From a virus: a stretch of 64,000 nt of DNA. The notes below the pieces were generated by a model. It was not told the DNA's origin, did not search any database, and saw nothing but the letters and a program-made list of their open reading frames with translations. The stretch is taken from IMG/VR virus record IMGVR_UViG_3300022888_000583. One strand, 5' to 3'. A program made the position numbers and the translations under genes. Shown in pieces: positions 22,808-53,398 of the stretch (its first letter is position 1; every line of letters begins with the position of its first letter).

Positions 22808-22810
22808 TTT

Positions 22811-24433: not shown

Positions 24434-24455
24434 TATTCTTATAATAAGTATCGGG

Positions 24456-25135: not shown

Positions 25136-25196
25136 AGTTCTCCTTGTTAGGTTACTATGATGCTGTTCCTTTTTTCATATCAATTCCCTTTTGTCA

Positions 25197-25512: not shown

Positions 25513-25527
25513 AGAAATTAAAATGTG

Positions 25528-25610: not shown

Positions 25611-25615
25611 ATTTG

Positions 25616-26041: not shown

Positions 26042-26164
26042 AATTTTATCCCCTTCTTTCCAATTGTCATGTCGTCTGTTGCAACATGTACTTAGAACAT
26101 GTCTTAATTTTGACGATATTTAGACACGTTATTCGCTCATGTCTATATCTTAGACATGTTATTG

Positions 26165-26253
26165 TACTCCCAGCTGGACTTGAACCAACATCTCGACTTT
26201 ATCAGAATCTGACCTGTTTATAAGACAGGGGCTTTACATTAAGCTATGGGAGC
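26165..26253 (-). tRNA. type II tRNA (23-nt variable region); anticodon loop CTTATAA reads UAU; identity unclear
   Basis: Acceptor GCTCCCA/TGGGAGT; T-arm GTTGGTTCAAGTCCAGC; 89 nt. Confidence 0.4.
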
Positions 26254-26258
26254 ATGTG

Positions 26259-26333
26259 TACTCTCGGCAGGACTCGAACCTGCAACCTTTTGGGTCGAAA
26301 CCAAGAACTCTATTCCAGTTGAGCTACGAGAGC
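26259..26333 (-). tRNA. tRNA-Arg(TCG)
   Basis: Anticodon loop TTTCGAC; T-arm GCAGGTTCGAGTCCTGC. Confidence 0.6.
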
Positions 26334-26338
26334 ATGTG

Positions 26339-26409
26339 TACTGGATGGGGGAATTGAACCCGCGCCTTCTCCATGTAAAAGAGAAATTCTACCATTAAAC
26401 TAATCCAGC
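26339..26409 (-). tRNA. tRNA-Val(TAC)
   Basis: Anticodon loop TTTACAT; T-loop TTCAATT. Confidence 0.5.
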
Positions 26410-26415
26410 GTGTTG

Positions 26416-26487
26416 TGCTCCAGAGCAGACTTGAACTGCCATTCTTGGTATATCAGACCAAAGTTCTACCGTTGAACTACTGGAGAA
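26416..26487 (-). tRNA. tRNA-Ile(GAT)
   Basis: Anticodon loop CTGATAT; T-arm GGCAGTTCAAGTCTGCT. Confidence 0.55.
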
Positions 26488-26493
26488 TGTATG

Positions 26494-26567
26494 TACCTCG
26501 AGTTGGAATTGAACCAACGACCTTTGGTTTATCAGACCAACGCTCTAACCAACTGAGCTACCGAGAT
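26494..26567 (-). tRNA. tRNA-Ile(GAT), second copy with a different body
   Basis: D-arm GCTCAGTTGGTTAGAGC; anticodon loop CTGATAA. Confidence 0.55.
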
Positions 26568-26657
26568 AGGTGCGGACTCATGCGGTGTTTTGGGGGAAAC
26601 TTTGCACAAGCCCTAAAAATTGATGTAAGTTGTGTAGTGATAACGAGATACATCTAA

Positions 26658-26739
26658 TGTCGCAGTGGGGAGACTTGAACTCCCGAGTTGCCGAATATGA
26701 GCCGACACTTACACGCCTGTCTCACTGCGAAAATTGTGA
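26658..26739 (-). ncRNA. tRNA-like element (good T-arm and acceptor, no canonical anticodon or D arms)
   Basis: T-arm GGGAGTTCAAGTCTCCC and acceptor CGCAGTG/CACTGCG; ~70 nt. Confidence 0.25.
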
Positions 26740-26876
26740 CTGGAATTTCGTTTGTAACCGAAGTGCACTTCATCATTACAATTGGCCGTTTCTCCCGATT
26801 CATTGTACGGCATTGATTCTAGGGTTATTCCGATTAAATGATAATTGTACCTATACCATTTAAAGTTGTCACATAG

Positions 26877-26949
26877 CGGCCTAAGCCAGATTCGAACTAG
26901 CAACGCGAGGTACTTCACACCTCCGCTCTACCATTGGAGCTATTAGGCC
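26877..26949 (-). tRNA. tRNA-Phe(GAA)
   Basis: Acceptor GGCCTAA/TTAGGCC; anticodon loop GTGAAGT. Confidence 0.7.
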
Positions 26950-26963
26950 ATATTTAATTTTTG

Positions 26964-27045
26964 TCCCGTTAGATGGAGTCGAACCAACATTGTCCATAGA
27001 CGACGGCTTTACAGGCCGCGGGGCATCCACTTGCCCAATAACGGG
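26964..27045 (-). tRNA. tRNA-Tyr(GTA), type II
   Basis: Acceptor CCCGTTA/TAACGGG; anticodon loop CTGTAAA; long variable arm. Confidence 0.65.
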
Positions 27046-27050
27046 TTGTG

Positions 27051-27124
27051 TACTCCCACAGGGATTCGAACCCCGACTAAAAGCTTAGAAGGCTCTTGTG
27101 CTAATCCTGTTACACTATGGGAGC
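27051..27124 (-). tRNA. tRNA-Arg(TCT)
   Basis: Anticodon loop CTTCTAA; T-arm CGGGGTTCGAATCCCTG. Confidence 0.65.
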
Positions 27125-27129
27125 AGTGC

Positions 27130-27315
27130 TTAATCTTTAAACTTGAACCATATTCTTCGGCCCACTTCGATGGTTGCACCGATTGAAATCATTGCCCCAG
27201 CCATAACAAGACCGTGAGACATTAAAGACAATCCAGCGATAAAGTACAATACAAATCTCAATGCTCCGAAATATGTAAATTCCCTATCTATTGCGTATCG
27301 TTCATCTACTGTCAT
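27130..27315 (-). CDS. small hydrophobic membrane protein (61 aa)
   Basis: Track ORF; two predicted TM segments. Confidence 0.3.
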   Translation of the reverse strand: MTVDERYAIDREFTYFGALRFVLYFIAGLSLMSHGLVMAGAMISIGATIEVGRRIWFKFKD

Positions 27316-27342
27316 TTTAATAACCCTTTCTTTTTAAATTTT

Positions 27343-27415
27343 GTACACCCGGTAGGTTACGATCCTACGACCTTGAGTTTAAGAGACTCCTGCTCTGCCA
27401 ACTGAGCTACGGGTG
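27343..27415 (-). tRNA. tRNA-Lys(CTT)
   Basis: Anticodon loop CTCTTAA; unusual T-loop ATCGTAA. Confidence 0.55.
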
Positions 27416-27423
27416 CGTTTGTG

Positions 27424-27497
27424 CAGGGGTATCAGGATTCGAACCCGATCTTCATGGTTTTGGAGACCATCGTGCTACCGTTAAACACTATACCCCT
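27424..27497 (-). tRNA. tRNA-Trp(CCA)
   Basis: Acceptor AGGGGTA/TACCCCT; anticodon loop CTCCAAA. Confidence 0.65.
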
Positions 27498-27504
27498 ATG
27501 TATG

Positions 27505-27579
27505 TAGTCCCCCAGGGAGTCGAACCCTGACATTGAACGGGTCTAAGCCGCACGCCTCTACCAGTTGGGCCAGAGGACC
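27505..27579 (-). tRNA. tRNA with anticodon UAG (Leu-type) but a short variable arm (type I), A73
   Basis: Anticodon loop CTTAGAC; T-arm CAGGGTTCGACTCCCTG; 6-nt variable region. Confidence 0.45.
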
Positions 27580-27593
27580 ATTATTTGTTTTTG

Positions 27594-27666
27594 TAGCATT
27601 GGTGAGATTCGAACTCACACTGGACGATTTTTGAAACCGCTTTCTCTGCCGTTGGAATACAATGCC
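27594..27666 (-). tRNA. tRNA with anticodon CAA (Leu-type) but a short variable arm (type I), A73
   Basis: Anticodon loop TTCAAAA; T-arm GTGAGTTCGAATCTCAC. Confidence 0.45.
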
Positions 27667-27689
27667 ATTTACCTAATTTTAATTTTTGA

Positions 27690-27778
27690 TTGTGGACACA
27701 ATGGGAATCGAACCCATTACGATGTTATTCTAATTTTAAATAAGTGGAAATTGAATTTTGATCGTATCCGATATGTCC
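27690..27778 (-). ncRNA. tRNA-like with a ~40-nt AT-rich insertion (intron-bearing tRNA or degenerate)
   Basis: T-arm ATGGGTTCGATTCCCAT and acceptor GGACATA/TGTGTCC; body not canonical. Confidence 0.2.
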
Positions 27779-27779
27779 T

Positions 27780-28690
27780 TGGTAGGGTTGAGATTATACC
27801 CTTTATAGTATCCCTTTGGGAAGATTATTTATTCCTTCCTGTGTCCACGACAACCCGCTAGGGTCTATACTCTTGCGAGTAGTAAGATACCAGTCCCAGT
27901 AGGTTTAGCCTACCACTCTTATCGTTCAGGTTATCTCCACAGTTACTTATTGCTATTCAATCTTGCAGGACTGACTAAGGTTTTAACACCACTAGAACTT
28001 TCGCCATAAAACATCCGCACCTTGTGAGTTTGGTTGCCCCCGATTCATCCGAAGATGTCAGGGATTAGGGAATTTTGCTCCTAAACGCTGTCGGTCTTTT
28101 TACTTTTCAGTGAAGTGGGAATTGAACCCACACCAGTTCGCTTAGAATGCGAATTGCCTAACCAATGAGGCGATTCATGATGTATTGTGGATATTAGAAT
28201 CTGCGCCGACCAGCGATGGCGTCCTCCCTTTTGAGGAACACATACCATTCAGATTCATACCATTTCCTGGATAAGGAATTTTAGCGGTTCTTAATTATTT
28301 CCAGTTTCACCCTGCGATGAAATGTTTAGTTATACATTACAATCCAGCGTTTTACCACTCATGCAATGCTTTCCCTAGAAAATACACATAATTACTAGAA
28401 TCAAGCCCTCAGTATCCCTACCTTGAACAAGACGCTCTGGCAATCCCTATTGGATTTCTCCTCACCGGCTGTTCCACGACAACCAGATACAATCCTCTCG
28501 TTCCTGGTGGAATCTGAGGTTCATATGTTAAACCATTGTATAGATGTCTCCTATTACTAAGAGCGGCTGTTCTACGAGCCCTTTAGTCCCACTTTCGTAG
28601 GGTTATCTTCATCACCCGAAGGTGAAGCGAATCCATACATCCGAATTCTATAATTTCAAAAAACTTTGACACTCTTTCGTGTCGATGATC
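27780..28690 (-). ncRNA. ~900-nt ORF-free structured region downstream of a degenerate promoter copy; candidate large ncRNA, intron or split tRNA
   Basis: No ORF of 60 aa or more, even allowing TGA as sense. Contains a UUCG tetraloop hairpin (CACCTTCGGGTG), GNRA hairpins (CCTACGAAAGTGGG; GACACGAAAGAGTGTC) and a tRNA-like T-arm (GTGGGTTCAATTCCCAC) at 28112-28135. Confidence 0.3.
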
Positions 28691-28728
28691 AATATACAAG
28701 ATTTAAATGTAAAAGTCAAGCGTTTTTT
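28691..28728 (-). promoter_or_regulatory. copy 6 (degenerate) of the promoter motif
   Basis: AATATACAAGATTTAAATGTAAAAGTCAAGCGTTTTTTT. Confidence 0.4.
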
Positions 28729-28829
28729 TCAATTTTCTTAACTTTTTTTCTCATTCCGTATTTGTATATATATATTAGGTTATAAGCCCAAACACCATTT
28801 TTATTTCAAAAAAGTGATTTTATTTTAAG

Positions 28830-28904
28830 TACTCCCAGAAGGATTTGAACCTCCGACCCCTTGGTTCGTAGCCAAGTGCTCTATTCCAGCTGAGCTATGG
28901 GAGC
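28830..28904 (-). tRNA. tRNA-Arg(ACG)
   Basis: Anticodon loop CTACGAA; T-arm GGAGGTTCAAATCCTTC. Confidence 0.65.
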
Positions 28905-29066
28905 GTGATTTTTACTTTTTGTACTGTATATTTCCACATGGAATTTTTATCATTTTGTTCCTTAACGTACGCTTTAGCGTCCGGTTTGGATTCGTATGCC
29001 GAGTCAATTTCTGAATCTCGGTTTCCATATTTTAATTTACTTAGTACCACATATACAATTTTCATT

Positions 29067-29198
29067 TTACCAGCCTTTTTTGTGTTTAGATTTACGATTA
29101 TATTTAGTCTTATCCTTAAACACTTTCCGAGTTGGAATTGTGGTACGCATCTCAGGTCGGATGCGATTTTTGTCTTTTCTTATTAGTTTCTTTTTCAT
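29067..29198 (-). CDS. very basic small protein (43 aa, or 27 aa from an internal Met)
   Basis: MKKKLIRKDKNRIRPEMRTTIPTRKVFKDKTKYNRKSKHKKGW immediately after motif copy 7. Confidence 0.3.
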   Translation of the reverse strand: MKKKLIRKDKNRIRPEMRTTIPTRKVFKDKTKYNRKSKHKKGW

Positions 29199-29244
29199 AC
29201 CTGAAGATACAAGATTATATTGACAAAGTCAAGCGTTATTTTCG
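29195..29244 (-). promoter_or_regulatory. copy 7 of the promoter/leader motif
   Basis: Full consensus copy. Confidence 0.55.
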
Positions 29245-29264
29245 CTTATTTGAAAATAATTTTG

Positions 29265-29336
29265 ATCCCCCGACCGGCCACGATCCGATACCAAAGCTTT
29301 ACAAGAGCCTTATTCTGCCAATTAAACTACAGGGGA
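29265..29336 (-). tRNA. tRNA-Thr(TGT) (unusual T-loop ATCGTGG)
   Basis: Anticodon loop CTTGTAA. Confidence 0.5.
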
Positions 29337-29348
29337 ATTTGTATTGCT

Positions 29349-29432
29349 CATGCGGTAGGATTCGAACCTACGACGTCGCTCTCGCGAAACAGATTAACAG
29401 TCTGCCACCATCGGCCTCTCGGTCACACATGA
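29349..29432 (-). tRNA. type II tRNA; anticodon loop CTGTTAA reads GUU; identity unclear
   Basis: Acceptor TCATGTG/CGCATGA; variable-arm hairpin TCGCGAGAGCGA; T-arm GTAGGTTCGAATCCTAC. Confidence 0.4.
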
Positions 29433-29434
29433 AT

Positions 29435-30010
29435 TTATATTTTTCTATAAGATTCTATTAATCCCATTTTAAACAATTCTTTTCCAGTAAGAATTTCCAA
29501 TTCAAGTGGGAATCATTCCCACTTAGCTTCATCTTTTGGAGTCTTATAACCCTTTACTTCAACATATTGTTTTTGTTTAATCAAATAAAAATCTGGAGTA
29601 TATCTATGCCCTTTATTTTCATATTCATAATAAAAATTTTCTTTTGGTCTTCTTCATAGGATATCATTATCATCTAATCATTTGGCATAATTTAATTCTC
29701 ATTTGCCATATAATTTAACCATACCATTGCATTTACTATCATATAAATGTGTTCTACTTTTGGAAAATGAATTATGTCATGTTCCATCTTTAATTTTTTC
29801 ATTTATAGTTTTTCGTATTTTTGATTTGGTTTCATCAGATACATTTTGTCTAGGATGACCATCGGTTACTTTTTTTATCCAATTATTTCTATTTGGATTT
29901 GATTTGCAACTAACACTATGCCCTCCTAATTTTCTACCATCATCAAATTTCATTCCACAATGTTTACAAATGCTATTACCAGACCCCTTAAATCTTTTTG
30001 CATTATCCAT
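29435..30010 (-). CDS. zinc-finger / HNH-like endonuclease-type protein (~191 aa) with 4 in-frame TGA, embedded in the tRNA array
   Basis: N-terminus CKHCGMKF...GGHSVSCKSNPNRNNWIKK; the frame runs through TGA at 29777, 29699, 29678, 29654 and 29513 to TAA at 29435. Confidence 0.45.
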
Positions 30011-30089
30011 ATAAATTTCCTCTTTATTATAAGTATTAAAGAATACAAAAATATACAGACTAACGCTCTAAATAGTTTTAAAATTTTTG

Positions 30090-30161
30090 CTCCGACGACA
30101 AGATTTGAACTTGCATTACCCTGTTTAACAAACAGACGCTTTACCCATTAGCTACGTCGGA
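30090..30161 (-). tRNA. tRNA-Asn(GTT)
   Basis: Acceptor TCCGACG/CGTCGGA; anticodon loop TTGTTAA. Confidence 0.65.
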
Positions 30162-30204
30162 AATTGGATTGGGTTTTTGAATAGAACCCTTCTGTAAACT
30201 ATTA

Positions 30205-30281
30205 TGGGGTGACTAGCGGGATTCGAACCCGCACTATCTGGGTCACAGCCGGACGTGCTAACCATTATCACTATAGCCACC
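30205..30281 (-). tRNA. tRNA-His(GTG) with G-1 and an encoded CCA
   Basis: Extra 5' G pairs with C73; anticodon loop CTGTGAC; 3' CCA present. Confidence 0.65.
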
Positions 30282-30300
30282 ATGTATGTTTTTTTGTTTG

Positions 30301-30373
30301 AGTACACGGTCAGAATCGAACTGACGTCCTCCGGGTTTGCAATCCAGTGCCTATGCCTCTCAGCCACGTGTAC
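30301..30373 (-). tRNA. tRNA-Cys(GCA)
   Basis: Acceptor GTACACG/CGTGTAC; anticodon loop TTGCAAA. Confidence 0.5.
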
Positions 30374-30601
30374 ATTAATGGAAACCAATCTCTTTACTGA
30401 GCTACATTGCTTCTAGCTCCCCCGCCGAAACGGATCATCACTATAATGCAAAGACTGGAGTTGAACCAGTGACCACAAGTTTATCAGTCTGGTGCTCTTT
30501 TTAGGTTTCTCAATTGGATTCGAGGTAAGGAATTACACCTTTGTTTTTCTAATACAATGGTTCGTCAACCAAAGCATATACGCCTTTAACGCTCTCAAGT
30601 G

Positions 30602-30674
30602 TAGTTCCATAGGGGATCGAACCCTAATCTCGGGCTTGAGAAGCCCGTATCCTATCCGGTTAGACGATGGAACC
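30602..30674 (-). tRNA. tRNA-Glu(CTC)
   Basis: Anticodon stem CGGGC/GCCCG; loop TTCTCAA. Confidence 0.6.
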
Positions 30675-30680
30675 ATAATG

Positions 30681-30753
30681 TCGTCTATCGGGGAATCGAA
30701 CCCCGCTCTCAGCCTTGAAAGGGCTGTGACATAAACCGATAGTCCAATAGACG
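30681..30753 (-). tRNA. tRNA-Glu(TTC)
   Basis: Anticodon stem CAGCC/GGCTG; loop CTTTCAA. Confidence 0.6.
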
Positions 30754-30758
30754 CTGTG

Positions 30759-30833
30759 TAGCTCCAGAGGGGAACAATCCCTCTTCTCTGCCTTGAAAGG
30801 GCAGTATCCTGTATCATCCTAGACGATGGAGCC
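30759..30833 (-). tRNA. tRNA-Glu(TTC), second copy (T-loop ATTGTTC)
   Basis: Anticodon stem CTGCC/GGCAG; loop CTTTCAA. Confidence 0.5.
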
Positions 30834-30897
30834 AATTATAGAATTTTGTATCAAGTACGAGAATCTGCTTGTGGACAAATATCTATTAAAACCGCCG

Positions 30898-30968
30898 TGG
30901 GTCGTGAAGGAATCGAACCTCCATCCGTGGGGTTACAGTCCAGTATACTACCGTTGTACGAACGACCC
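30898..30968 (-). tRNA. tRNA, anticodon loop CTGTAAC (GUA?) with a weak anticodon stem; possible pseudo-tRNA
   Basis: Good acceptor GGGTCGT/ACGACCC and T-arm. Confidence 0.3.
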
Positions 30969-31027
30969 AAATTGTGAGAATTTTTAATTATATACCGCTC
31001 CCAGATTTTCTCTAACTGGCGGATTGT

Positions 31028-31100
31028 GGATACATGACGGCTTCGAACCCTCATCCTTCTGTTTGCAAAACAGATGCTTTCCCAATTAAGCTAATGACCC
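31028..31100 (-). tRNA. tRNA-Ala(TGC)-like with acceptor mismatches (no G3-U70); likely pseudo-tRNA
   Basis: Anticodon arm TCTGT-TTTGCAA-ACAGA. Confidence 0.3.
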
Positions 31101-31183
31101 GACTGCAAATTCTTTACAGGATAGTGCTAGACTGAAGGAACACCTTTGACCTATGATCACTTGATCTCCGGCTGTGTTACTTG

Positions 31184-31255
31184 TGGAGTTACTCGGTTAC
31201 GATCCGAGGACTTCTGGTTGCAAACCAGAGATTTTCCCGATTAAACTATAACCCC
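31184..31255 (-). tRNA. tRNA-Ala(TGC)
   Basis: Acceptor GGGGTTA/TAACTCC with G3-U70; anticodon loop TTTGCAA. Confidence 0.65.
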
Positions 31256-31261
31256 ATTGTG

Positions 31262-31333
31262 CGGAACTGATGGGTAACGATCCCACTTCCACGGCTTGAC
31301 AAGCCGTTGTCCATGCCTACTGACTCCAGTTCC
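31262..31333 (-). tRNA. tRNA-Asp(GTC)
   Basis: Anticodon stem ACGGC/GCCGT; loop TTGTCAA. Confidence 0.65.
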
Positions 31334-31557
31334 AGATATCCATTGTACTTCTGAATGTACCTTAAATTACCATTGTAATTATGATGCAGGATTGGCATCA
31401 GCGGTTTCGGTAAGTGAACCTGCTGAATATCGTATCACTTCTGTCGCAGTGACCAGACCTTGGTTAATTTCGACTCATATACCAAGAATGAACCGGAACG
31501 CTATGACCCCATATCGTCCCATAGGGAGTACGCTAGTACTATTTCAGATTTAGTGGC

Positions 31558-31625
31558 GGGGCCAGAAATCGCATCTGGAAACGTGAGCTTATGAGGCTCC
31601 GTGGCACTTAGCTCCCCGCAATGTA
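31558..31625 (-). ncRNA. small structured RNA / tRNA-like (possible CAU anticodon loop CTCATAA, reduced D-arm)
   Basis: Acceptor-like GCGGGGA...CCCCGC; T-arm-like CCAGATGCGATTTCTGG. Confidence 0.2.
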
Positions 31626-31629
31626 TATT

Positions 31630-31863
31630 TTAATATAATTGGTTTTTGTATAGTGCTCTATAACGAGTGGTGTCCCCGTCATTGATAATTGTGTATGTTC
31701 CATCGCTATCCGCTACAAGTTCCAATATCGGATCAACTTGTTCCAAGCTTTCCAATGCCGAATTATGAACTTGTTCTTCAGTATAACTTAGGAATAGGAA
31801 TGCGAAAATTACGGTAATCCATATTACCCGTGTCCAATGATTTTTTGTAATCTTAAACATCAA
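31630..31863 (-). CDS. small secreted/membrane protein (77 aa)
   Basis: Track ORF; hydrophobic N-terminus. Confidence 0.35.
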   Translation of the reverse strand: MMFKITKNHWTRVIWITVIFAFLFLSYTEEQVHNSALESLEQVDPILELVADSDGTYTIINDGDTTRYRALYKNQLY

Positions 31864-31869
31864 AAACCT

Positions 31870-32214
31870 CTAGTCGCAAAAGCATGACACTACATGGTCA
31901 ATGGTAACTGGCAGATGTAATTCTGCATCTGAATTATGGATAGCATTACTTGTGCGATATCCTTCTTCATAATATTCTTTTCTAGGAGAATACAATTCCC
32001 GTTCGATGTCAGCCTTAACTGTGGCCGAAACTTTATCCGTAGGAAACCACGCGTCCAAATCAATAATATTATATGAAGATGGATCGCTATGGCTCTGTGA
32101 AATTACCATTACTATCATTTTGTTACCTTTATTTTTTAGGAGTAAATTTATCACTAAAGATGTAATTGAAAGCCCAATCGCTTTCATATCTCCCAAGTGA
32201 TAATACAAGTACAA
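31870..32214 (-). CDS. hypothetical protein (114 aa)
   Basis: Track ORF. Confidence 0.35.
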   Translation of the reverse strand: MYLYYHLGDMKAIGLSITSLVINLLLKNKGNKMIVMVISQSHSDPSSYNIIDLDAWFPTDKVSATVKADIERELYSPRKEYYEEGYRTSNAIHNSDAELHLPVTIDHVVSCFCD

Positions 32215-32418
32215 GACCTTCGCCTATCAATAATATTCCATAAATGAAATATTTCCAATTTGTTGAAGCTTTTACATGTCGTCTAATTTTGTTACTCATT
32301 TTTTCCTTTTTAATTTTAATAGGAGCTATGAGGAAAGCATTTCACTTCCATCTGATTATTTCCGCAGTACCGAACTGTTTGATAACCCGCATTCTGTTAT
32401 ACTATCATAGCGTGTTTG

Positions 32419-32491
32419 GCGAGTACACCGGGATCGAACCGGCAACCTCCGGCGTGACAGGCCGGTGTGCTTCCACTTGCACCTCTACTCG
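32419..32491 (-). tRNA. tRNA-Asp(GTC), second copy, CCA encoded
   Basis: Anticodon stem CCGGC/GCCGG; loop CTGTCAC. Confidence 0.55.
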
Positions 32492-32708
32492 AGATAAGCT
32501 CATGTGGTTTACAAATCCACTTCTAAAACCAATGCATCAGTCTCCAAGTATAGAGCGATACTTAAAATCATTTTTTAAAAGAAGTGATTTTCAAACTTTG
32601 GTTACCTTCAGTTTCCTTGAAAACACCTTTCTTAGACCCAAGATGAATGGAAGGCCCCTAATTAACCCCTAGGAAGGCGGTGTTTACTGTCACCGCAGTG
32701 TAATTTGG

Positions 32709-32783
32709 AACGGGATATCAGATTCGAACTGATACTTTAAGATTGGAAGTCTCGCGTGCTAAGCCGTTAAACACTAATCCCGC
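32709..32783 (-). tRNA. tRNA-Gly(TCC)
   Basis: Anticodon loop CTTCCAA; T-arm ATCAGTTCGAATCTGAT. Confidence 0.6.
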
Positions 32784-32834
32784 ATTGGTCGGATTGGGAA
32801 CTTCTCCATAGTGGATAATTCCCGCTCCTGTTTG

Positions 32835-32908
32835 TACACCCGGTAGGCAACGATCCTACAACCTTGGGCTTAAAAGGCCCCTGCTCTGCCAAATTGAGCT
32901 ACGAGTGC
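32835..32908 (-). tRNA. tRNA-Lys(TTT)
   Basis: Anticodon loop CTTTTAA; T-loop ATCGTTG. Confidence 0.6.
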
Positions 32909-33136
32909 ATAAAATTTTTGGAGTAGATTTCCATTATCACCCTGCAGGAATGAAATGGTACTCCACGGTCACAAAAAGTTTGAGTGAGATTCGAACCCAC
33001 CAGCTTACTGTATATTAGTCAAATTGAAACCCTTCGAATTGTTTCAACCTGAGAATATTCAGTAGCATCTGCCCTACTGCATCCATTCCCGTTAACCACG
33101 CTTTTGTATAAATTTTTTGTCTGGGGTGCAGGAGTC

Positions 33137-33209
33137 GAACCTGCCAAAACCATGTTTCCAAAACACAGCCGCCACCCCGACTGTTACCCCAGTTATGTAG
33201 CCCCCAATT
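33137..33209 (-). tRNA. tRNA-Pro(TGG)
   Basis: Acceptor CTGGGGT/ACCCCAG; anticodon loop TTTGGAA. Confidence 0.55.
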
Positions 33210-33531
33210 AAGGGGACTACTATATGTCAAATAATCACACGAGATACCTCGTAGTAACTATTTTGTTTTTTTACTATTATACCCAACTGTCAAAAAACCG
33301 ATGTGGCTGTACAATCACTAACAGCTGTGTAACTTCCCGTCAATTGGGTGATGAGCCCAAGCTAGACTGACACAACGAAGGTCAGTCGGCGATTTACATT
33401 TTTCTCCAATCGCAAATTATATAAAAGTGCAGTGAGCTTTAGAATTCTCACATTTCCAGCTGAAAGGCCGGCGACTTACCCTTAGTCCATACACATTCTT
33501 TCAAAAATCTTAGAAACTTATTCCGTTTCTA

Positions 33532-33600
33532 TCATACCTGAAGATACAAGATTATATTGACAAAGTCAAGCGTTTTCTTTGATTATCTTCATTTATTTTT
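33532..33600 (-). promoter_or_regulatory. copy 8 of the promoter motif, with the extended upstream AAATAAATGAAGATAATCAAAGAAAACG element
   Basis: Full consensus; drives a ~300-nt non-coding leader into tRNA-Pro. Confidence 0.55.
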
Positions 33601-33630
33601 CAATAAGCCGAGAAACCTTTTCGTTTCTCA

Positions 33631-33690
33631 CATACCTGAAGATACAAGATAAAAATGACAAAGTCAAGCGTTTTCTTTGATTATCTTCAA
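33631..33690 (-). promoter_or_regulatory. copy 9 of the promoter motif (tandem with copy 8, ~100 nt apart)
   Basis: CATACCTGAAGATACAAGATAAAAATGACAAAGTCAAGCGTTTTCTTTGATTATCTTCA. Confidence 0.55.
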
Positions 33691-33699
33691 TTATTTTTG

Positions 33700-33774
33700 T
33701 ACCCGCCCCGAGGCTCGAACTCGGAACTACTGGATTTTAAGTCCAGTCCCTCTTTCCATTTGGGGTAGACGGGC
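33700..33774 (-). tRNA. tRNA with anticodon UAA (Leu-type), short variable arm (type I), A73
   Basis: Acceptor GCCCGTC/GGCGGGT; anticodon stem CTGGA/TCCAG; loop CTTAAAA; T-arm CCGAGTTCGAGCCTCGG. Confidence 0.55.
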
Positions 33775-45234: not shown

Positions 45235-45912
45235 TTATTTTGTATCTTCTTCTTCTAAGTTAATATCTTTAACCTCGGTATCACTCTCACCTAAAGTTTT
45301 TAAGTATTTCCTCTTTACCCTTTTATCTAAATAATAGATATAAATATTTTTTGATACTCTGGTCTCCCAAAAGATATTAGGATCACCAGCATCGTATCGA
45401 GCTTTGATAGCTCTACCATACGGCCGTTTGTCCTGATTCAATGTCCTAGAATGATATTGCCTACCATCTACCATCAGTACCTTGCCCGCCGCGGTAACAC
45501 CCGCTCGGTGGAAATTGGTAGCTTGATATATAATACCTTCATGACCATAATGCCTGTCCGCAAATGATACAATCACTTCACAGTCGGTATTCTTTTTTAG
45601 CCATTTAAAGGTTTGACCAATGAAATAGCTTTCAGTATTTTTTGGGGTGTCATCTATACAGACTAACCTCCTCAGTTCCCAACATCTCAATGGGTTGTCT
45701 GGATTATATTTGCTAGCGATTGCTGGCATTCCTGGGTTGCCATATATCATGGCACCTATCATATCATACAATCCAAATTTATTTTCCTTTAACAACGCAA
45801 AACAATGCAACGAGTGGACACCATTAATATTATGTGAATAATGATGCTTCTCTATAAACGCCGATATCTGTTTGCGTGGAACTTCTCTAACTATAAATTC
45901 AGTTACGCTCAT
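45235..45912 (-). CDS. hypothetical protein (225 aa; IEKHHYSH motif; possibly a Mom-like modification enzyme)
   Basis: ORF; ATG directly after the TAA of the RNA ligase gene. Confidence 0.45.
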   Translation of the reverse strand: MSVTEFIVREVPRKQISAFIEKHHYSHNINGVHSLHCFALLKENKFGLYDMIGAMIYGNPGMPAIASKYNPDNPLRCWELRRLVCIDDTPKNTESYFIGQTFKWLKKNTDCEVIVSFADRHYGHEGIIYQATNFHRAGVTAAGKVLMVDGRQYHSRTLNQDKRPYGRAIKARYDAGDPNIFWETRVSKNIYIYYLDKRVKRKYLKTLGESDTEVKDINLEEEDTK

Positions 45913-46998
45913 TTATTTATCTTCACTCCTCATACCCATTCCTACAAATCCAGTAGTCAATACTGGTTTGATTGATTTCCAGATCAAGTCTGAATAATCC
46001 CAGTCCTTTTTCATTTTGAATAATATAGACCTGTGAGTTTCTTCCTTTACTCGATCCGCAAAGTCACGCTGAACTTCAGATTCTTCTGGTGCCTCTGGAT
46101 AGTGTGAGTAAAACATTTTCATATTTTCCATGACCCTATTATAATCACTAAGTGCTTCACGCTCTACTTTATTATATTCCATAGTCAGTTGACTACATAT
46201 TGAGTTAGCCCATCTGTGTAATTCGTCTGGTATGCCAATTATGACATCCTGAACATTACCACCACTTGACAATGTTTCCCAAATCGTTTTTTCATTTATT
46301 CTAGTTACAACCCTATGCTTTTCAACATAGTTGGCAAATTTAACCTTAACCCTATATCCATCGAATAAGCATACAAAACCTTCTTCATTTTCCAAATCAA
46401 GTTCCTGTAATTGTGCCAATGTCATTTCATCGAAATCGAATTTCTTAACAACTTCAAATCCCAATTCATAATCGAGCGTCTCGTTAGCCGTATCATTATC
46501 CATAATAGTAAGCAATACCAAATCGTCTTTGGTTCCATAGTCAACTACGATTCTACCAGTTGGTGAAATCAATTCGAATATATAGGTTTTGCCTTCTTCT
46601 ATCTTATCGATAAAATCATCGTGTTTGGATTCCAATATTTCCTTACCGTAAATCGCGGTGTCTGATGTAAATGATCCTCTGGACACAACCAATGTCTGAC
46701 CTTGATATTTGAATATCTCAATAAGTGAACCATCCAATTTTTCGAAGACTACCATTTCTGTATCTTCTGGAATGTTTGCTTCAGGTTCTTCGTAGTTGAA
46801 AAACTTAGGTAATGGGCGAGCAACAATGTTGCCCTCACCATCAAGAACCAAACCACGACACATCATAGTCCATTCATTCCAATGTCTTTCGAATTGGGCA
46901 GACTGGGTATAATTGTATATGTACAAATCTAGATCAGGATGCTTGTTGACCCTAATATATTTTTTATCGATCTCTTCCTGGGGTATTTTTATTTTCAT
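45913..46998 (-). CDS. RNA ligase, T4 Rnl1-like
   Basis: Nucleotidyl-transferase motif I VFEKLDGSLIEIF (compare Rnl1 KEDGSL); motif V RVKVKF; 361 aa. Confidence 0.65.
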   Translation of the reverse strand: MKIKIPQEEIDKKYIRVNKHPDLDLYIYNYTQSAQFERHWNEWTMMCRGLVLDGEGNIVARPLPKFFNYEEPEANIPEDTEMVVFEKLDGSLIEIFKYQGQTLVVSRGSFTSDTAIYGKEILESKHDDFIDKIEEGKTYIFELISPTGRIVVDYGTKDDLVLLTIMDNDTANETLDYELGFEVVKKFDFDEMTLAQLQELDLENEEGFVCLFDGYRVKVKFANYVEKHRVVTRINEKTIWETLSSGGNVQDVIIGIPDELHRWANSICSQLTMEYNKVEREALSDYNRVMENMKMFYSHYPEAPEESEVQRDFADRVKEETHRSILFKMKKDWDYSDLIWKSIKPVLTTGFVGMGMRSEDK

Positions 46999-47243
46999 TT
47001 CTTTTTCTTCCTTCGATCTTCTTCAGACCATTTGTCCCAATTCAACACATAATCTAATATGCATTCATGTCCCCATCTTTTTTTGTGTCTAACCCACCAT
47101 TTGTAAATAACAACATCGCTATCATCATAAGCAGATGGGCAAGTTCCTAGTACATGAATAAGAATTGGTTTTCTTGACCAACCGGGATATATGTGAAATT
47201 TATCACCAGCTTTAAAATTCTTAGTTACTATGTCAAAATTCAT
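46995..47243 (-). CDS. hypothetical protein (82 aa)
   Basis: ORF. Confidence 0.4.
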   Translation of the reverse strand: MNFDIVTKNFKAGDKFHIYPGWSRKPILIHVLGTCPSAYDDSDVVIYKWWVRHKKRWGHECILDYVLNWDKWSEEDRRKKKK

Positions 47244-47244
47244 T

Positions 47245-48027
47245 CTATTTGTCCTCGGTTATAATTAAGTCGTGGTAATATTCTTCATAGAAATCTACCA
47301 TCTGTTCACTAAAGAAATTCTTATCAGCATTCTCTGGTAGTCGTTTGTTTAACGCCACCTGAACCATTTCCTTCTGCAGGATGTCATCCAACGCCTTAGC
47401 GTGGGACTCGAATTCAGTTCCATTTTTGAATTCCTTACCGGCTCTGATATTTATCAACAAGTCCAAGTCTCGGCCTGAAAACTTAGTAGTCAGAGTTCCT
47501 TTGGTCATCATCTCAATTCCATTGATTAACATTCTGATAGTATGCATAGCATATTTAGAATCATACGCGTCATCCTTAGGACCATATTTATATTGTGGTC
47601 TGATTTGACCATGGCCAGCTCTATTGGAATTCCTAATCATTTGAGACCTAGCGAATCCGGCATAAGCCTTTCCCGACCTTTGGGTAATTAATTTATCCCT
47701 ATGGACAAGAAAATATTCATTGAATAGTGGATGTATCACTTTAATCATGTCATCCATAAATAGCAATTCAAAAATATTTGGGTTGGAATTCAATGCAAGT
47801 GAAATAAACTTATGCAGTGAATGCAACGCAATATCTTCTAACTTGTAACTTACCGATTCTCGTTTATTAAATCCATAAATCACATCTCTGGTATTTGCAA
47901 ATACTCCCCTGTAATCATAATCTGATTCTGGGGTGAAAGTACCATGCGCACGAGAACCATCCAATACTAAATATAGCAGATTCGGTTCGTCCTCTTGGAT
48001 CATGTTTACAATTTTTCGTTGTGCCAT
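47245..48027 (-). CDS. Pol-beta-like nucleotidyltransferase (GS...D.D motif)
   Basis: LYLVLDGSRAHGTFTPESDYDYRGVF. Confidence 0.5.
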   Translation of the reverse strand: MAQRKIVNMIQEDEPNLLYLVLDGSRAHGTFTPESDYDYRGVFANTRDVIYGFNKRESVSYKLEDIALHSLHKFISLALNSNPNIFELLFMDDMIKVIHPLFNEYFLVHRDKLITQRSGKAYAGFARSQMIRNSNRAGHGQIRPQYKYGPKDDAYDSKYAMHTIRMLINGIEMMTKGTLTTKFSGRDLDLLINIRAGKEFKNGTEFESHAKALDDILQKEMVQVALNKRLPENADKNFFSEQMVDFYEEYYHDLIITEDK

Positions 48028-48045: not shown

Positions 48046-48093
48046 TACCCTGAAGATACAAGATAATATCCACAAAGTCAAGCGTTTTCTTTA
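48046..48093 (-). promoter_or_regulatory. copy 14 of the promoter motif
   Basis: ACCCTGAAGATACAAGATAATATCCACAAAGTCAAGCGTTTTCTT. Confidence 0.5.
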
Positions 48094-52705: not shown

Positions 52706-53398
52706 ATGTCAATTTATGTATGTGGTGATGTCCACGGAACAAACGATATCAGGAAACTAAATTCCCGCAATTGGCCGGAGAAAAAAGTACTTACCAAAAG
52801 TGATACTCTTATTCAGCTTGGTGATTTTGGTCATCTGTGGACTAACGTCCCCGATAGACGAGAAAAATGGTGGATTAAATGGTTTGATGAACAACCATAT
52901 ACTACAGCCATTGTACCTGGTAATCATGAGAATTACCATAGAATTAATGCACTTCCCGAAGAGGAAAAATGGGGCGGCACTGTAAAGCGTGTTTCCAAAT
53001 CCATATTCATTCTGAATCGTGGAGAGATTTATACCATTGAGGGCAAGACATTCTTCGCTTTTGGTGGAGCACAATCTACTGATAAAGAATGGCGTGTAAT
53101 CGACGTGTCTTGGTGGGAAGATGAACTTCCTTCAAAGGCGGAAGAAGATCATGGACTGGATAGTCTGAATGCGGTTGGTAATGAGGTTGACTTCATAGTA
53201 ACCCATACAGCTCCTGCAGATGTTGTCGGGCGTTGTCTCGGCCGCTGGGATAGGTACAACGATCCAGTTTCAAATTATCTGTCATTCATTGAGGAAACTA
53301 CTGAATATGGAGACTGGCATTTTGGTCACCTCCACGAAGATAAATCATTTGGAAAATTCCATTGTCACTATAACGCTAAACCTAAGAAGATTGTATAA
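52706..53398 (+). CDS. Ser/Thr protein phosphatase-like metallophosphoesterase
   Basis: Motifs GDVHG, GDFGH and GNHEN. Confidence 0.7.
   Translation: MSIYVCGDVHGTNDIRKLNSRNWPEKKVLTKSDTLIQLGDFGHLWTNVPDRREKWWIKWFDEQPYTTAIVPGNHENYHRINALPEEEKWGGTVKRVSKSIFILNRGEIYTIEGKTFFAFGGAQSTDKEWRVIDVSWWEDELPSKAEEDHGLDSLNAVGNEVDFIVTHTAPADVVGRCLGRWDRYNDPVSNYLSFIEETTEYGDWHFGHLHEDKSFGKFHCHYNAKPKKIV

What the first reader, a model, noticed from the sequence alone, without database searches (positions are those of the whole stretch)
45913..48027. RNA end-healing and sealing gene set: Rnl1-like ligase and NTase here, Tpt1/KptA, two metallophosphatases and an HD hydrolase elsewhere
A T4 Rnl1-like ligase (KLDGSL motif) sits next to a Pol-beta-type nucleotidyltransferase. 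A KptA/Tpt1 2'-phosphotransferase (23068..23607), calcineurin-like phosphoesterases (20340..20942, 52706..53398) and an HD phosphohydrolase (3428..4213) lie in the same replicon. Together they could heal and seal tRNAs cut by host anticodon nucleases. The Tpt1 implies a 2'-phosphate junction chemistry different from the T4 Pnkp/Rnl1 pathway.
Basis: partly seen in the sequence, partly recalled or inferred. Interest (0 to 1): 0.7.

Follow-up and report, generated by a model that had tools for sequence, protein, structure and literature searches.

The report
Phage tRNA repair gene set
A large, uncultured, tRNA-rich phage carries a T4-type RNA ligase next to an RNA-end-extending enzyme, with RNA-end-cleaning and NAD-recycling enzymes elsewhere; this is a correct reading of a counter-defence toolkit already described for large phages, not a new kind of system.

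Summary
45913-46998(-) is a T4 Rnl1-family RNA ligase with all nucleotidyl-transfer motifs. 47245-48027(-) is an RlaP nucleotidyltransferase, a family named for its linkage to RNA ligases and now shown to add 1-2 nucleotides to broken RNA 3' ends. RlaP, a small ORF, the ligase and a Mom-like gene are tightly packed. RlaP-then-Rnl1 order is kept in three diverged relatives.

Tpt1/KptA (23068-23607) has its catalytic tetrad. It sits in a 41-tRNA island within 5.2 kb of a calcineurin-type phosphoesterase (20340-20942), a DUF4326 phosphatase-like gene and a cREC domain. In 45 dereplicated viral loci with related ligases, homologues of that phosphoesterase (24/45) and cREC (5/45) lie beside the ligase, so they are credible end-healing partners.

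The "2'-phosphate junction" inference is not supported. The ligase is Rnl1-type in both domains, not Trl1-type. Both phosphoesterases keep the canonical DxH motif. No 2H phosphodiesterase and no 5' kinase were found in about 91 kb. The HD protein looks like a nucleotidase-type HD enzyme with no repair context.

The combination is already described for jumbo phages (Iyer et al. 2021, 2022). Verdict: new member of a known kind.

The parts
47245..48027 (-). [quoted passage not shown] Predicted to add 1-2 nucleotides to the 3'-OH of a broken RNA.
   Evidence: Pfam PF10127 at 8.2e-22, 78.5 bits against GA 23. phrog_388 at 1e-40. G24-S25, D36, D38 and D65 are invariant in 9 homologues. The family's activity is shown in PMC12776372.
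46995..47243 (-). orf82, a small basic-tailed ORF between RlaP and the ligase. It starts 1 nt after the RlaP stop and overlaps the ligase start by 4 nt (ATGA). Not a conserved component.
   Evidence: Sequence. No Pfam, PHROG or NCBIfam hit. Relatives have unrelated small ORFs at this position.
45913..46998 (-). T4 Rnl1-family ATP-dependent RNA ligase, 361 aa (adenylyltransferase domain plus helical C-domain).
   Evidence: Family matches. Alignment to T4 Rnl1 shows R48, K65/F67, K87 (KxDG), E142, E206/G207 and K218/K220 conserved, with T4 K119 replaced by R107. AF2 model pLDDT 91. Foldseek top hits are T4 Rnl1 5tt6/2c5u at 6e-18. The family profile matches T4 Rnl1 residues 35-360 at 7e-31.
45235..45912 (-). 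Mom-like protein, 225 aa, starting directly after the ligase stop codon. Probably a co-transcribed DNA-modification (anti-restriction) gene, not a repair component.
   Evidence: Pfam Mom PF25680 at 9e-37 and phrog_1384 at 3e-54. Adjacent to the ligase only in the closest relative, L091. Absent near ligases in 72 IMG/VR loci.
48053..48081 (-). Sigma-70-like promoter match (TTGACT-17-TATCTT), 26 nt upstream of the RlaP start codon. Possible operon promoter.
   Evidence: The number of such matches in the region is no higher than in shuffles, so this is only a consensus match.
23068..23607 (-). Tpt1/KptA NAD+-dependent RNA 2'-phosphotransferase, 179 aa, lying between tRNA genes.
   Evidence: PF01885 at 2.1e-43. 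NF002014 at 8e-61, 205 bits against a cutoff of 239. PDB 7kw8 at 5e-42. The catalytic tetrad aligns as R18-H19, R72 and R116.
22811..23074 (-). orf87, overlapping the Tpt1 stop. Function unknown. 93% conserved in the sister phage.
   Evidence: (no family).
21093..21398 (-). DUF4326 (rhodanese-phosphatase-like) protein, 101 aa. Proposed in the literature to remove terminal phosphates from ADP-ribose derivatives.
   Evidence: PF14216 at 5.5e-25. The proposal is in PMC9503650.
20340..20942 (-). Calcineurin-type metallophosphoesterase, 200 aa (called MPE200 below). Best candidate for the 3'-end healing enzyme (2',3'-cyclic, 2'- or 3'-phosphate removal).
   Evidence: phrog_547 at 5e-48. Motifs D8xH10, GD52, GNH77D and GH126xH128 are present. 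An HMM built from the ligase-adjacent homologues hits only this ORF, at 1.6e-14. Homologues lie within 5 kb of the ligase in 24/45 dereplicated loci.
18395..18787 (-). cREC (cyclic-phosphate-processing receiver) domain protein, 130 aa. [quoted passage not shown]
   Evidence: PF20274 at 6.8e-13, 49.6 bits against GA 27. Homologues lie next to related ligases in 5/45 groups. The prediction is in PMC7824862 and PMC9503650.
52706..53398 (+). Second calcineurin-type metallophosphoesterase, 230 aa (called MPE230 below). Possible alternative 3'-healing enzyme, with weaker support.
   Evidence: PF00149 at 5.9e-12. Motifs D8xH10, GD40, GNH74E and GH207xH209 are present. Homologues lie beside a divergent ligase subgroup in 4/45 groups.
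3428..4213 (-). HD-superfamily-like protein, 261 aa, next to the tmRNA gene. Probably a nucleotide phosphohydrolase. Not linked to RNA repair by any evidence found.
   Evidence: phrog_28876 at 1e-14. Invariant His/Asp set. AF2 pLDDT 85. Foldseek best hits are HD proteins 1xx7 and YfbR at E 0.045-0.09. Only 4 of 72 ligase loci have a homologue, at 7-9 kb distance.
6657..11466 (-). NAD+ supply and ADP-ribose disposal genes: isochorismatase/PncA-like (6657-7283), Nudix NudE-like (7285-7797), NAD synthase NadE (7790-8608) and nicotinate phosphoribosyltransferase (10309-11466). GroEL (8668-10290) lies between them. They could regenerate the NAD+ that Tpt1 consumes.
16585..33774 (-). Array of 41 tRNA genes, the likely substrates or replacements, all on the same strand as the repair genes. 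No introns.

Best explanation
This is a phage tRNA-repair toolkit of a known type, in two places.

**Sealing module (shown by homology and synteny).** RlaP, a small ORF and Rnl1 are tightly packed and probably co-transcribed. [quoted passage not shown] This is needed when the nuclease also trims a nucleotide, as RloC does. The Rnl1-type ligase then joins 3'-OH/2'-OH to 5'-PO4, recognising tRNA shape through its Rnl1-type C-domain.

**Healing module (inferred from neighbourhoods in other phages).** It lies in the tRNA island.
- The 200-aa calcineurin-type phosphoesterase (MPE200) and/or cREC open and remove the 2',3'-cyclic phosphate.
- Tpt1 uses NAD+ to remove any 2'-phosphate that escapes hydrolysis, either at the end or at the sealed junction.
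- cREC, DUF4326 and Nudix could then break down the ADP-ribose cyclic phosphate by-product.
- PncA-like, NAPRTase and NadE rebuild NAD+ from the released nicotinamide.

**Open points.** Tpt1 is best seen as an accessory clean-up route, not as proof of an obligatory 2'-phosphate junction. The 5' kinase needed for 5'-OH ends is not in the 91 kb examined. It is presumably encoded elsewhere in the genome. The 41 phage tRNAs provide a parallel replace-rather-than-repair strategy.
For: **Enzyme identities and catalytic residues.**

**Packing of the sealing module.**
- 1-nt gap between RlaP and orf82, 4-nt overlap between orf82 and the ligase, and the Mom-like gene abuts the ligase stop.
- RlaP-then-Rnl1 order is kept in three relatives with RlaP identity of 66%, 50% and 47%, while the intervening small ORFs differ.
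- RlaP activity on RNA 3'-OH, and its preference for the broken end of a cleaved-tRNA mimic, are shown in PMC12776372.

**Neighbours of related ligases, 45 dereplicated groups.**
- AAA_33 kinase 31/45.
- MPE200-like 24/45.
- cREC 5/45.
- MPE230-like 4/45.
- HAD_SAK (HAD-superfamily 'Swiss-army-knife' phosphatase) 4/45.

**Healing cluster.** Tpt1, DUF4326, MPE200 and cREC lie within 18395-23607 among tRNA genes. The same order is kept in a sister phage with 58-95% protein identity.

**Biochemical precedent.** A calcineurin-type phosphoesterase heals 2',3'>P through a 2'-phosphate intermediate to ends that T4 Rnl1 seals (PMC1920235).

**Literature.** Published comparative genomics describes the same combination in jumbo phages.
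Against: - No 5' polynucleotide kinase was found in the window, the +-10 kb flanks or 7 kb beyond. An HMM of the kinase family that accompanies related ligases finds nothing, and a Walker-A scan of the window finds only a MoxR ATPase and a 65-aa ORF.
- The ligase module is 22-27 kb from the healing genes.
- Tpt1 is not next to a ligase in three other Tpt1-carrying phages examined.
- The catalytic activities of cREC and DUF4326 are predictions only (PMC9503650).
- MPE200 scores just under the Pfam cutoffs.
- No host or host nuclease is known.
- No biochemistry exists for any protein of this phage.
Confidence: 0.6

Rival explanations
1. One reading: repair follows an obligatory yeast/plant-type route. 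A cyclic phosphodiesterase leaves 3'-OH/2'-PO4, the ligase seals to a 2'-phosphate junction, and Tpt1 is required to finish the job.
For: - A catalytically intact Tpt1 sits in the tRNA island beside candidate cyclic-phosphate-opening enzymes and NAD+ salvage genes.
- Calcineurin-type healing passes through a 2'-phosphate intermediate, and a single mutation can make it stop there (PMC1920235).
- Iyer et al. propose KptA-dependent repair in jumbo phages.
Against: - The ligase is Rnl1-type in both domains. Its profile matches T4 Rnl1 at 7e-31 and no Trl1 ligase at E<=1.
- Foldseek ranks T4 Rnl1 at 6e-18, ahead of Trl1-LIG at 3e-11.
- The 2'-PO4 requirement in Trl1 depends on its own C-domain Arg pair plus a His (PMC11404444).
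- MPE200 and MPE230 both keep the DxH histidine.
- No 2H phosphodiesterase was found by Pfam or by motif.
- The tRNAs have no introns.
- Tpt1 is 22 kb from the ligase.
Confidence: 0.15
2. Tpt1, cREC, DUF4326, Nudix and the NAD+ salvage genes form an NAD+/ADP-ribose counter-defence network that is independent of the ligase. It would restore NAD+ depleted by host NADase defences and destroy ADP-ribose-derived signals or nucleic-acid modifications. Only RlaP-Rnl1 does RNA repair.
For: - The NAD+-related genes cluster at 6.6-23.6 kb, away from the ligase.
- cREC, DUF4326 and Nudix are assigned to ADP-ribose processing in PMC9503650.
- Tpt1 shows no ligase neighbour in three other phages.
- A nucleoside deoxyribosyltransferase-like (DrHyd-type) gene lies at 14792-15274.
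Against: - cREC and MPE200 homologues lie right next to related Rnl1 ligases in many viral loci.
- The genes are embedded among tRNA genes and are syntenic in a sister phage.
- The only established Tpt1 chemistry is on RNA 2'-phosphates (PMC11404444).
Confidence: 0.2
3. The HD protein (3428-4213) and the second metallophosphoesterase (52706-53398) are not RNA repair enzymes. They are nucleotide-metabolism or other phosphohydrolases that happen to be in the same genome.
For: - The HD261 family is a large marine family of 1439 homologues with no repair-gene context.
- Its model most resembles YfbR 5'-deoxynucleotidase and small HD proteins, and only weakly.
- It lies 7-9 kb from ligases in only 4 of 72 loci.
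- MPE230 is on the opposite strand in a block of small unknown ORFs.
Against: - MPE230-like genes lie 0.8-2.7 kb from a divergent ligase subgroup in 4/45 groups.
- HD and calcineurin-like phosphatases are listed as occasional RNA 3'-phosphatases in jumbo phages (PMC7824862).
Confidence: 0.55

Closest known systems
Bacteriophage T4 tRNA repair (Rnl1/gp63 with Pnkp; T4 also encodes the RlaP-family protein NrdC.11)
   Same: - Rnl1-type ligase with the same motifs and a homologous C-domain.
- A phage-encoded RlaP is also present in T4 (PMC12776372).
- The presumed purpose is to undo anticodon-nuclease damage.
   Different: - Only about 20% identity to T4 Rnl1, below the NCBIfam equivalog cutoff.
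- No Pnkp (kinase plus HAD phosphatase) was found in 91 kb.
- The candidate 3' healing enzymes are calcineurin-type and cREC.
- RlaP is operonic with the ligase.
- Tpt1 and NAD+ salvage genes are present.
RlaP-containing RNA repair operons (Burroughs and Aravind 2016 as cited in PMC7824862; Pseudomonas RtcB-RlaP-RtcA, PMC12776372)
   Same: A PF10127 NTase with an intact Pol-beta catalytic triad sits directly beside an RNA ligase.
   Different: - The partner here is an ATP-dependent Rnl1, not RtcB.
- It is about 27-33% identical to the nearest cellular homologues.
- Few close relatives exist: 9 hits at E<=1e-5.
Split kinase / calcineurin-phosphoesterase / Rnl1 cassettes in uncultured viral contigs, and the fused bacterial Pnkp of Clostridium thermocellum
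   Same: - Same ligase clade at 30-38% identity.
- Same small phosphoesterase family as MPE200.
- In CthPnkp this type of phosphoesterase heals ends for T4 Rnl1 (PMC1920235).
   Different: - In this phage the cassette is dispersed, with the phosphoesterase 25 kb from the ligase.
- The AAA_33 kinase is missing from the region seen.
- RlaP takes the place next to the ligase.
KptA/Tpt1-based NAD+-dependent RNA repair proposed for jumbo phages (Iyer et al. 2021, 2022)
   Same: KptA occurs together with RNA ligase, RlaP, cREC, calcineurin/HD phosphatases, Nudix, NAD+ synthesis genes and many tRNAs.
   Different: - No 2H or Macro domain was found here.
- cREC and DUF4326 would have to fill those roles.
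- Tpt1 is rare in phage records, 98 of 50,697.
- This phage has no near relative in the INPHARED collection.
Fungal/plant tRNA ligase Trl1 plus Tpt1 (tRNA splicing)
   Same: A ligase of the same broad superfamily (second-best fold match) and a bona fide Tpt1 homologue.
   Different: - No Trl1-type C-domain match, so no aligned counterpart for its 2'-PO4-binding triad.
- No fused kinase-CPD (cyclic phosphodiesterase) domains.
- No tRNA introns.

Membership tests
[quoted passage not shown] | Nucleotidyltransferase motifs I (KxDG lysine), Ia, III, IV and V | tested here: met
   K87-L-D-G, R48, K65/F67, E142, E206-G207 and K218/K220 align with T4 R54, K75/F77, K99, E159, E227-G228 and K240/K242. 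They are invariant in 53 homologues. T4 K119 is Arg here.
[quoted passage not shown] | Rnl1-specific helical C-terminal domain (the tRNA-specificity domain) | tested here: met
   The family profile aligns to T4 Rnl1 residues 35-360 at 7e-31. The phrog_562 match spans residues 9-349. Foldseek gives a whole-length alignment to 5tt6/2c5u, but TM is only 0.56 because domain orientation differs.
[quoted passage not shown] | Score above the curated equivalog cutoff (TIGR02308) | tested here: not met
   73.7 bits against a cutoff of 242.25. It is a distant member of the family, not an equivalog of T4 RnlA.
[quoted passage not shown] | Seals broken tRNA anticodon loops | not testable with these tools
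   Needs a biochemical assay.
Trl1-type (Rnl6) 2'-PO4-dependent tRNA ligase | Rnl6 C-domain carrying the Arg pair, plus a His, that bind the terminal 2'-PO4 (CthLIG H227/R334/R337) | tested here: not met
   No Trl1 ligase chain is matched by the family profile at E<=1. Fold similarity is second to T4 Rnl1. A residue-level structural superposition was not possible. The family does have a conserved H228-R229 just after motif V, of unknown role.
RlaP (PF10127) | Pfam gathering score and the Pol-beta NTase catalytic residues (G-S, DxD, third Asp) | tested here: met
   78.5 bits against 23. G24-S25, D36, D38 and D65 are invariant.
RlaP (PF10127) | Genomic association with an RNA ligase | tested here: met
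   It is separated from Rnl1 only by an 82-aa ORF. The order is conserved in L088, L090 and L091.
RlaP (PF10127) | Adds 1-2 NMP to RNA 3'-OH | not testable with these tools
   Shown for Pseudomonas RlaP only (PMC12776372).
Tpt1/KptA RNA 2'-phosphotransferase | Pfam gathering score and the Arg-His-Arg-Arg catalytic tetrad | tested here: met
   148.9 bits against 26. R18-H19, R72 and R116 align with the conserved LRH, RxxQGHS and RxxVHLS motifs of solved Tpt1 structures. The NCBIfam equivalog score of 205 is slightly under the cutoff of 239.
Calcineurin-like metallophosphoesterases | Motifs DxH, GDxx, GNH[DE] and GHxH | tested here: met
   Both proteins have all motifs. MPE230 passes the Pfam GA. 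MPE200 is just under it (25.7 against 27) but matches phrog_547 at 5e-48 and PDB 1xm7.
cREC (PF20274) | Pfam gathering score; Rec-like acidic residues | tested here: met
   49.6 bits against 27. E9-D10-D11 and D59/D61 are present. The catalytic function itself is only predicted in the literature.
HD phosphohydrolase superfamily (3428-4213) | H...HD...D metal-binding motif and the HD fold | tested here: inconclusive
   No Pfam or NCBIfam hit. The invariant His/Asp pattern fits. Foldseek hits are nearly all HD proteins, but the best E is only 0.045.
Complete T4-type heal-and-seal pathway | A 5'-OH polynucleotide kinase | tested here: not met
   No P-loop kinase was found in the window, the +-10 kb flanks (L005-L012) or L092. 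The rest of the genome was not available.

The most novel reading that the evidence does not exclude
In this abundant marine phage, Tpt1 has a real physiological substrate. The calcineurin-type or cREC healing step would leave 2'-phosphates, which an Rnl1-type ligase tolerates. Tpt1 would then remove them at the cost of NAD+. cREC, DUF4326, Nudix and the PncA/NAPRTase/NadE genes would form a closed loop that disposes of the ADP-ribose cyclic phosphate and rebuilds NAD+. That would give the first natural role for a Tpt1 outside eukaryal and archaeal tRNA splicing. If the genome truly lacks a kinase, it would also be a kinase-independent variant of phage RNA repair.
Probability: 0.15. Interest if true: 0.7.

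Novelty: new member of a known kind. Interest (0 to 1): 0.3.

Why it matters
The phage is common in metagenomes: the exact ligase sequence is indexed in 129 blocks of the collection. It combines about 41 tRNAs, a tmRNA, an RNA ligase, RlaP, Tpt1 and NAD+ salvage.

It is a compact natural system for two open questions. One is what Tpt1 homologues do in the bacterial and phage world, where no pathway is known to make RNA 2'-phosphates. The other is whether RlaP really works with Rnl1 against nucleotide-excising anticodon nucleases.

As a genomic observation it adds an example rather than a concept. Iyer et al. 2021 and 2022 already describe this gene combination in large phages.

Tried and rejected
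- **Nucleotide match to known phages.** Megablast of 6 kb against 50,697 phage records gave nothing.
- **Search for a kinase.**
  - Pfam or PHROG scans of essentially all ORFs of 100 aa or more.
  - A Walker-A regex scan.
  - An HMM of the AAA_33 kinase family that accompanies related ligases.
  - tblastn with two actinophage Pnkp proteins.
  - All were negative in the window, the +-10 kb flanks and a further 7 kb obtained with the single metagenome DNA scan. Walking further was blocked, because only window proteins can be looked up.
- **Search for 2H or Macro domains.** None found by Pfam or by the HxT/S motif.
- **tRNA introns** that would call for splicing-type ligation. None found. The two over-long tRNAs have long variable arms instead.
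- **Tpt1 neighbourhoods in known phages** (phiCD211, Erwinia Special G, pEa_SNUABM_1). No ligase or other window repair homologue within +-5 kb.
- **orf82 as a conserved adaptor between RlaP and the ligase.** Rejected, because relatives carry unrelated small ORFs there.
- **Mom-like gene as an RNA-modifying partner of the ligase.** Rejected as unsupported. It is adjacent only in the closest relative and in none of 72 viral loci.
- **PDB sequence searches** for RlaP, MPE230 and HD261 gave nothing useful.
- **Promoter scan.** The count of matches is not above the shuffle expectation.


Full report
**Setting.** The window is part of a large uncultured phage.
- It has about 37% G+C. Genes run on the minus strand up to about 52 kb.
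- It has no nucleotide-level relative among 50,697 phage records.
- It carries 41 tRNA genes and a tmRNA, confirmed by Rfam.
- The same phage is frequent in metagenomes. The exact ligase protein is indexed in 129 blocks of the collection, on contigs up to 97 kb.
- Relatives carry T4-associated families (Phage_T4_Y07B, DUF4494, a weak gp25 hit), which suggests a T4-like myovirus lineage. This is an inference.

**The observation.**
- The 361-aa protein at 45913-46998(-) matches Pfam RNA_lig_T4_1 (2.8e-20) and PHROG 562, the T4 gp63/Rnl1 family (1.9e-64 over nearly its whole length).
- Aligned to the T4 Rnl1 crystal structure sequence, it keeps R48 (T4 R54), K65/F67 (K75/F77), the adenylylated lysine K87 in KLDGS (K99), E142 (E159), E206-G207 (E227-G228) and K218/K220 (K240/K242). 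T4 K119 is an arginine here. These positions are invariant in 53 homologues.
- An AlphaFold model built on that alignment is confident (pLDDT 91). Its best PDB matches are the three T4 Rnl1 entries (E about 1e-17). Fungal Trl1 ligase domains come next (E about 1e-10), then the Rnl3, Rnl5 and Rnl2 types. DNA ligases are far behind.
- The family profile aligns to T4 Rnl1 residues 35-360, that is both domains, at 7e-31. It finds no Trl1 chain at E<=1.
- The protein is too distant to pass the NCBIfam equivalog cutoff.

**The nucleotidyltransferase.** The 260-aa protein at 47245-48027(-) is an RlaP (PF10127, 78.5 bits against a cutoff of 23). It has the Pol-beta catalytic set G24-S25, D36-x-D38 and D65, invariant among its few homologues.
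- RlaP means 'RNA ligase-associating Pol-beta'. The family was named for exactly this adjacency (PMC7824862).
- A 2025 preprint shows that Pseudomonas RlaPs add one or two nucleotides to RNA 3'-OH ends and prefer the broken end of a cleaved-tRNA mimic. The same preprint proposes RlaP as an antidote to nucleases such as RloC that also excise a nucleotide. It notes that T4 NrdC.11 is an RlaP (PMC12776372).

**Operon anatomy.**
- The RlaP stop is followed after 1 nt by the start of an 82-aa ORF.
- The stop of that ORF overlaps the ligase start (ATGA).
- The ligase stop is followed directly by the start of a Mom-family gene.
- A sigma-70-like hexamer pair lies 26 nt upstream of RlaP, but such matches are no more frequent here than in shuffles.
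- In three relatives whose RlaP is 66%, 50% and 47% identical, RlaP again precedes Rnl1 on the same strand. Unrelated small ORFs lie between them. In one relative a Nudix gene also lies between them and an Rnl2 follows.
- The RlaP-Rnl1 linkage is therefore conserved. orf82 is not conserved, and Mom is adjacent only in the closest relative.

**The healing enzymes.** I collected 72 viral loci (45 groups after dereplication at 90% ligase identity) that encode ligases 30-38% identical to this one, and clustered their neighbours within 5 kb.

| Neighbour family | Groups (of 45) |
|---|---|
| Small AAA_33 P-loop kinase | 31 |
| 200-220-aa calcineurin-type phosphoesterase | 24 (19 also have the kinase) |
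| cREC domain protein | 5 |
| Second metallophosphoesterase type | 4 |
| HAD 'Swiss-army-knife' phosphatase | 4 |

- Family names come from Pfam.
- HMMs built from these neighbour clusters each hit one window ORF. The phosphoesterase HMM hits 20340-20942 (1.6e-14), the cREC HMM hits 18395-18787 (3.4e-8), and the second metallophosphoesterase HMM hits 52706-53398 (5.6e-7).
The 200-aa one has strong support and the 230-aa one weak support.
- The kinase HMM finds nothing in the window, its +-10 kb flanks or 7 kb further. A Walker-A scan of the window finds only a MoxR ATPase and a 65-aa ORF.
- The usual kinase/phosphoesterase/ligase cassette has been taken apart in this phage. Its kinase is either elsewhere in the unseen genome or absent.

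**Tpt1 and its surroundings.** The 179-aa protein at 23068-23607(-) is a clear Tpt1/KptA. It scores 2e-43 in Pfam and 5e-42 against PDB entry 7kw8, and the tetrad R18-H19/R72/R116 is in place.
- Tpt1 is rare in phages: 98 of 50,697 records, mostly jumbo phages of Erwinia, Dickeya and Klebsiella, plus Clostridioides phages.
- It lies between tRNA genes. It is within 5.2 kb of DUF4326 (21093-21398), the 200-aa phosphoesterase and cREC.
- The same order is kept in a sister phage whose proteins are 58-95% identical.
- Further along are a NudE-like Nudix, an isochorismatase/PncA-like protein, NadE and a nicotinate phosphoribosyltransferase.
- Iyer et al. assign cREC, DUF4326 and Nudix to the processing of ADP-ribose cyclic phosphate, ADP-ribose phosphate and ADP-ribose. 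They explicitly describe KptA, RNA ligases, RlaP, calcineurin/HD phosphatases, cREC and NAD+ synthesis as the RNA-repair and NAD+ wing of jumbo-phage counter-defence (PMC7824862, PMC9503650).
- The gene set fits a loop. [quoted passage not shown] PncA-like, NAPRTase and NadE would rebuild NAD+.
- No NaMN adenylyltransferase was seen.
- All steps after Tpt1 are inferred.

**Does Tpt1 imply a 2'-phosphate junction?** I found nothing that requires it and several things against it.
- The requirement of Trl1-type ligases for a 2'-PO4 rests on a His-Arg-Arg triad, two members of which lie in their unique C-domain (PMC11404444). This ligase has an Rnl1-type C-domain.
- The C. thermocellum Pnkp phosphoesterase, also a binuclear metallophosphoesterase, opens the cyclic phosphate to a 2'-phosphate and then removes it. 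That gives ends which T4 Rnl1 seals. Only the H189D change of the motif-I histidine makes it stop at 2'-PO4 and switch to the yeast ligase (PMC1920235). Both window phosphoesterases keep that histidine: D8-L-H10 and D8-V-H10.
- No 2H phosphodiesterase is present. No tRNA has an intron.
- In three other Tpt1-bearing phages no ligase lies within 5 kb of Tpt1.
- A 2'-phosphate intermediate is nevertheless part of calcineurin-type healing. A mop-up role for Tpt1 is therefore reasonable, and I take it as the most likely reading.

**The HD protein.** 3428-4213(-) has no Pfam or NCBIfam match.
- It belongs to a large, mostly marine family of 1439 homologues with an invariant H...H...HHD...D...H..D pattern.
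- Its model (pLDDT 85) gives only weak Foldseek matches. Almost all are HD enzymes, led by a Pyrococcus HD protein and the YfbR 5'-deoxynucleotidase.
- It is next to the tmRNA gene, not next to repair genes. Homologues are 7-9 kb from ligases in only 4 of 72 loci.
- I would not count it as part of the repair set.

**Verdict.**
- The sequence observation is confirmed.
- The general interpretation, a heal-and-seal kit against tRNA-cutting defences, is well supported by homology, conserved synteny and neighbourhood evidence. It is already in the literature.
- The specific claim of a distinct 2'-phosphate junction chemistry is not supported.
- The missing kinase is the main gap.
- This is a new member of a known kind. 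It is of moderate-to-low interest as a discovery, but a good experimental system for the unresolved question of what phage and bacterial Tpt1 enzymes act on.

Noticed in passing
window 27785-28257 (-): A full-length GOLLD RNA (Rfam RF02032, 190 bits against a gathering score of 150, E 5e-52) sits inside the tRNA array. It overlaps the ARAGORN tRNA-Arg(tct) call at 28107-28180.
   Followed up: no
window 4236-4594 (-); 58424-58813 (+); 58823-59101 (+); 8668-10290 (-); 11480-12133 (-); 18787-19374 (-); 17530-18369 (-): A translation and proteostasis kit is present. It comprises a tmRNA (tag GTNYAYPVAA), an ArfB-like RF-1 domain protein (1e-17), Cpn10, GroEL, peptide deformylase, ClpP and a Band-7/SPFH protein. 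My greedy ORF caller had masked the RF-1 gene with a longer ORF on the opposite strand.
   Followed up: partly
window 26164-26253, 29346-29432, 27504-27666, 33699-33774 (-): Some tRNAs are odd. tRNA-Ile(tat), 90 nt, and one tRNA-Asn(gtt), 87 nt, have long variable arms. All three tRNA-Leu are only 74-76 nt and have short variable arms. None has an intron. The long tRNA-Ile(tat) is conserved in the sister phage.
   Followed up: partly
window 6657-11466 (-) and 14792-15274 (-): An NAD+ salvage set is present (PncA-like isochorismatase, NAPRTase, NadE) with a NudE-like Nudix and a nucleoside deoxyribosyltransferase-like protein. No NaMN adenylyltransferase was seen. A distant relative, L059, also has NadE and NAPRTase within 10 kb of its ligase and RlaP.
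   Followed up: partly
window 45235-45912 (-) vs L091 2681-3355: The Mom-like gene that abuts the ligase is 88% identical in the closest relative, and flanking genes are 78-88% identical. The ligase (69%) and RlaP (65%) are clearly more diverged. This may mean faster evolution of the repair genes.
   Followed up: no
L014, L023-L026, L050-L051 and others (IMG/VR loci), within 5 kb of the ligase: An unannotated 205-243-aa protein family (cluster 5, no Pfam hit) recurs inside kinase/phosphoesterase/ligase cassettes in 10 loci. It may be an undescribed RNA-repair accessory. It is absent from this window.
   Followed up: partly
L063-L066 (IMG/VR loci), ligase region: The ligase gene is split into 147-aa and 215-aa pieces separated by ORFs of 279 and 78 aa. 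This suggests an intron or homing-endonuclease insertion in an Rnl1 gene.
   Followed up: no
window 37285-40877 (-); 42803-43501 (-); 13479-14372 (-); 16034-16510 (-): Other notable genes were seen: a MoxR-type AAA_5 ATPase with a 787-aa partner, an S-adenosylmethionine-lyase-like protein, an R2K-clade ATP-grasp protein, and an RNaseH_like (PF04308) protein beside tRNA-Ser.
   Followed up: no
protein hits P0036, P0045, P0046, P0059, P0068 and others: The nearest cellular homologues of the ligase (38-40% identity, about 338 aa) are chromosomal 'T4 RnlA family RNA ligases' of Flavobacterium species. This may hint at a Bacteroidota host or gene source.
   Followed up: no
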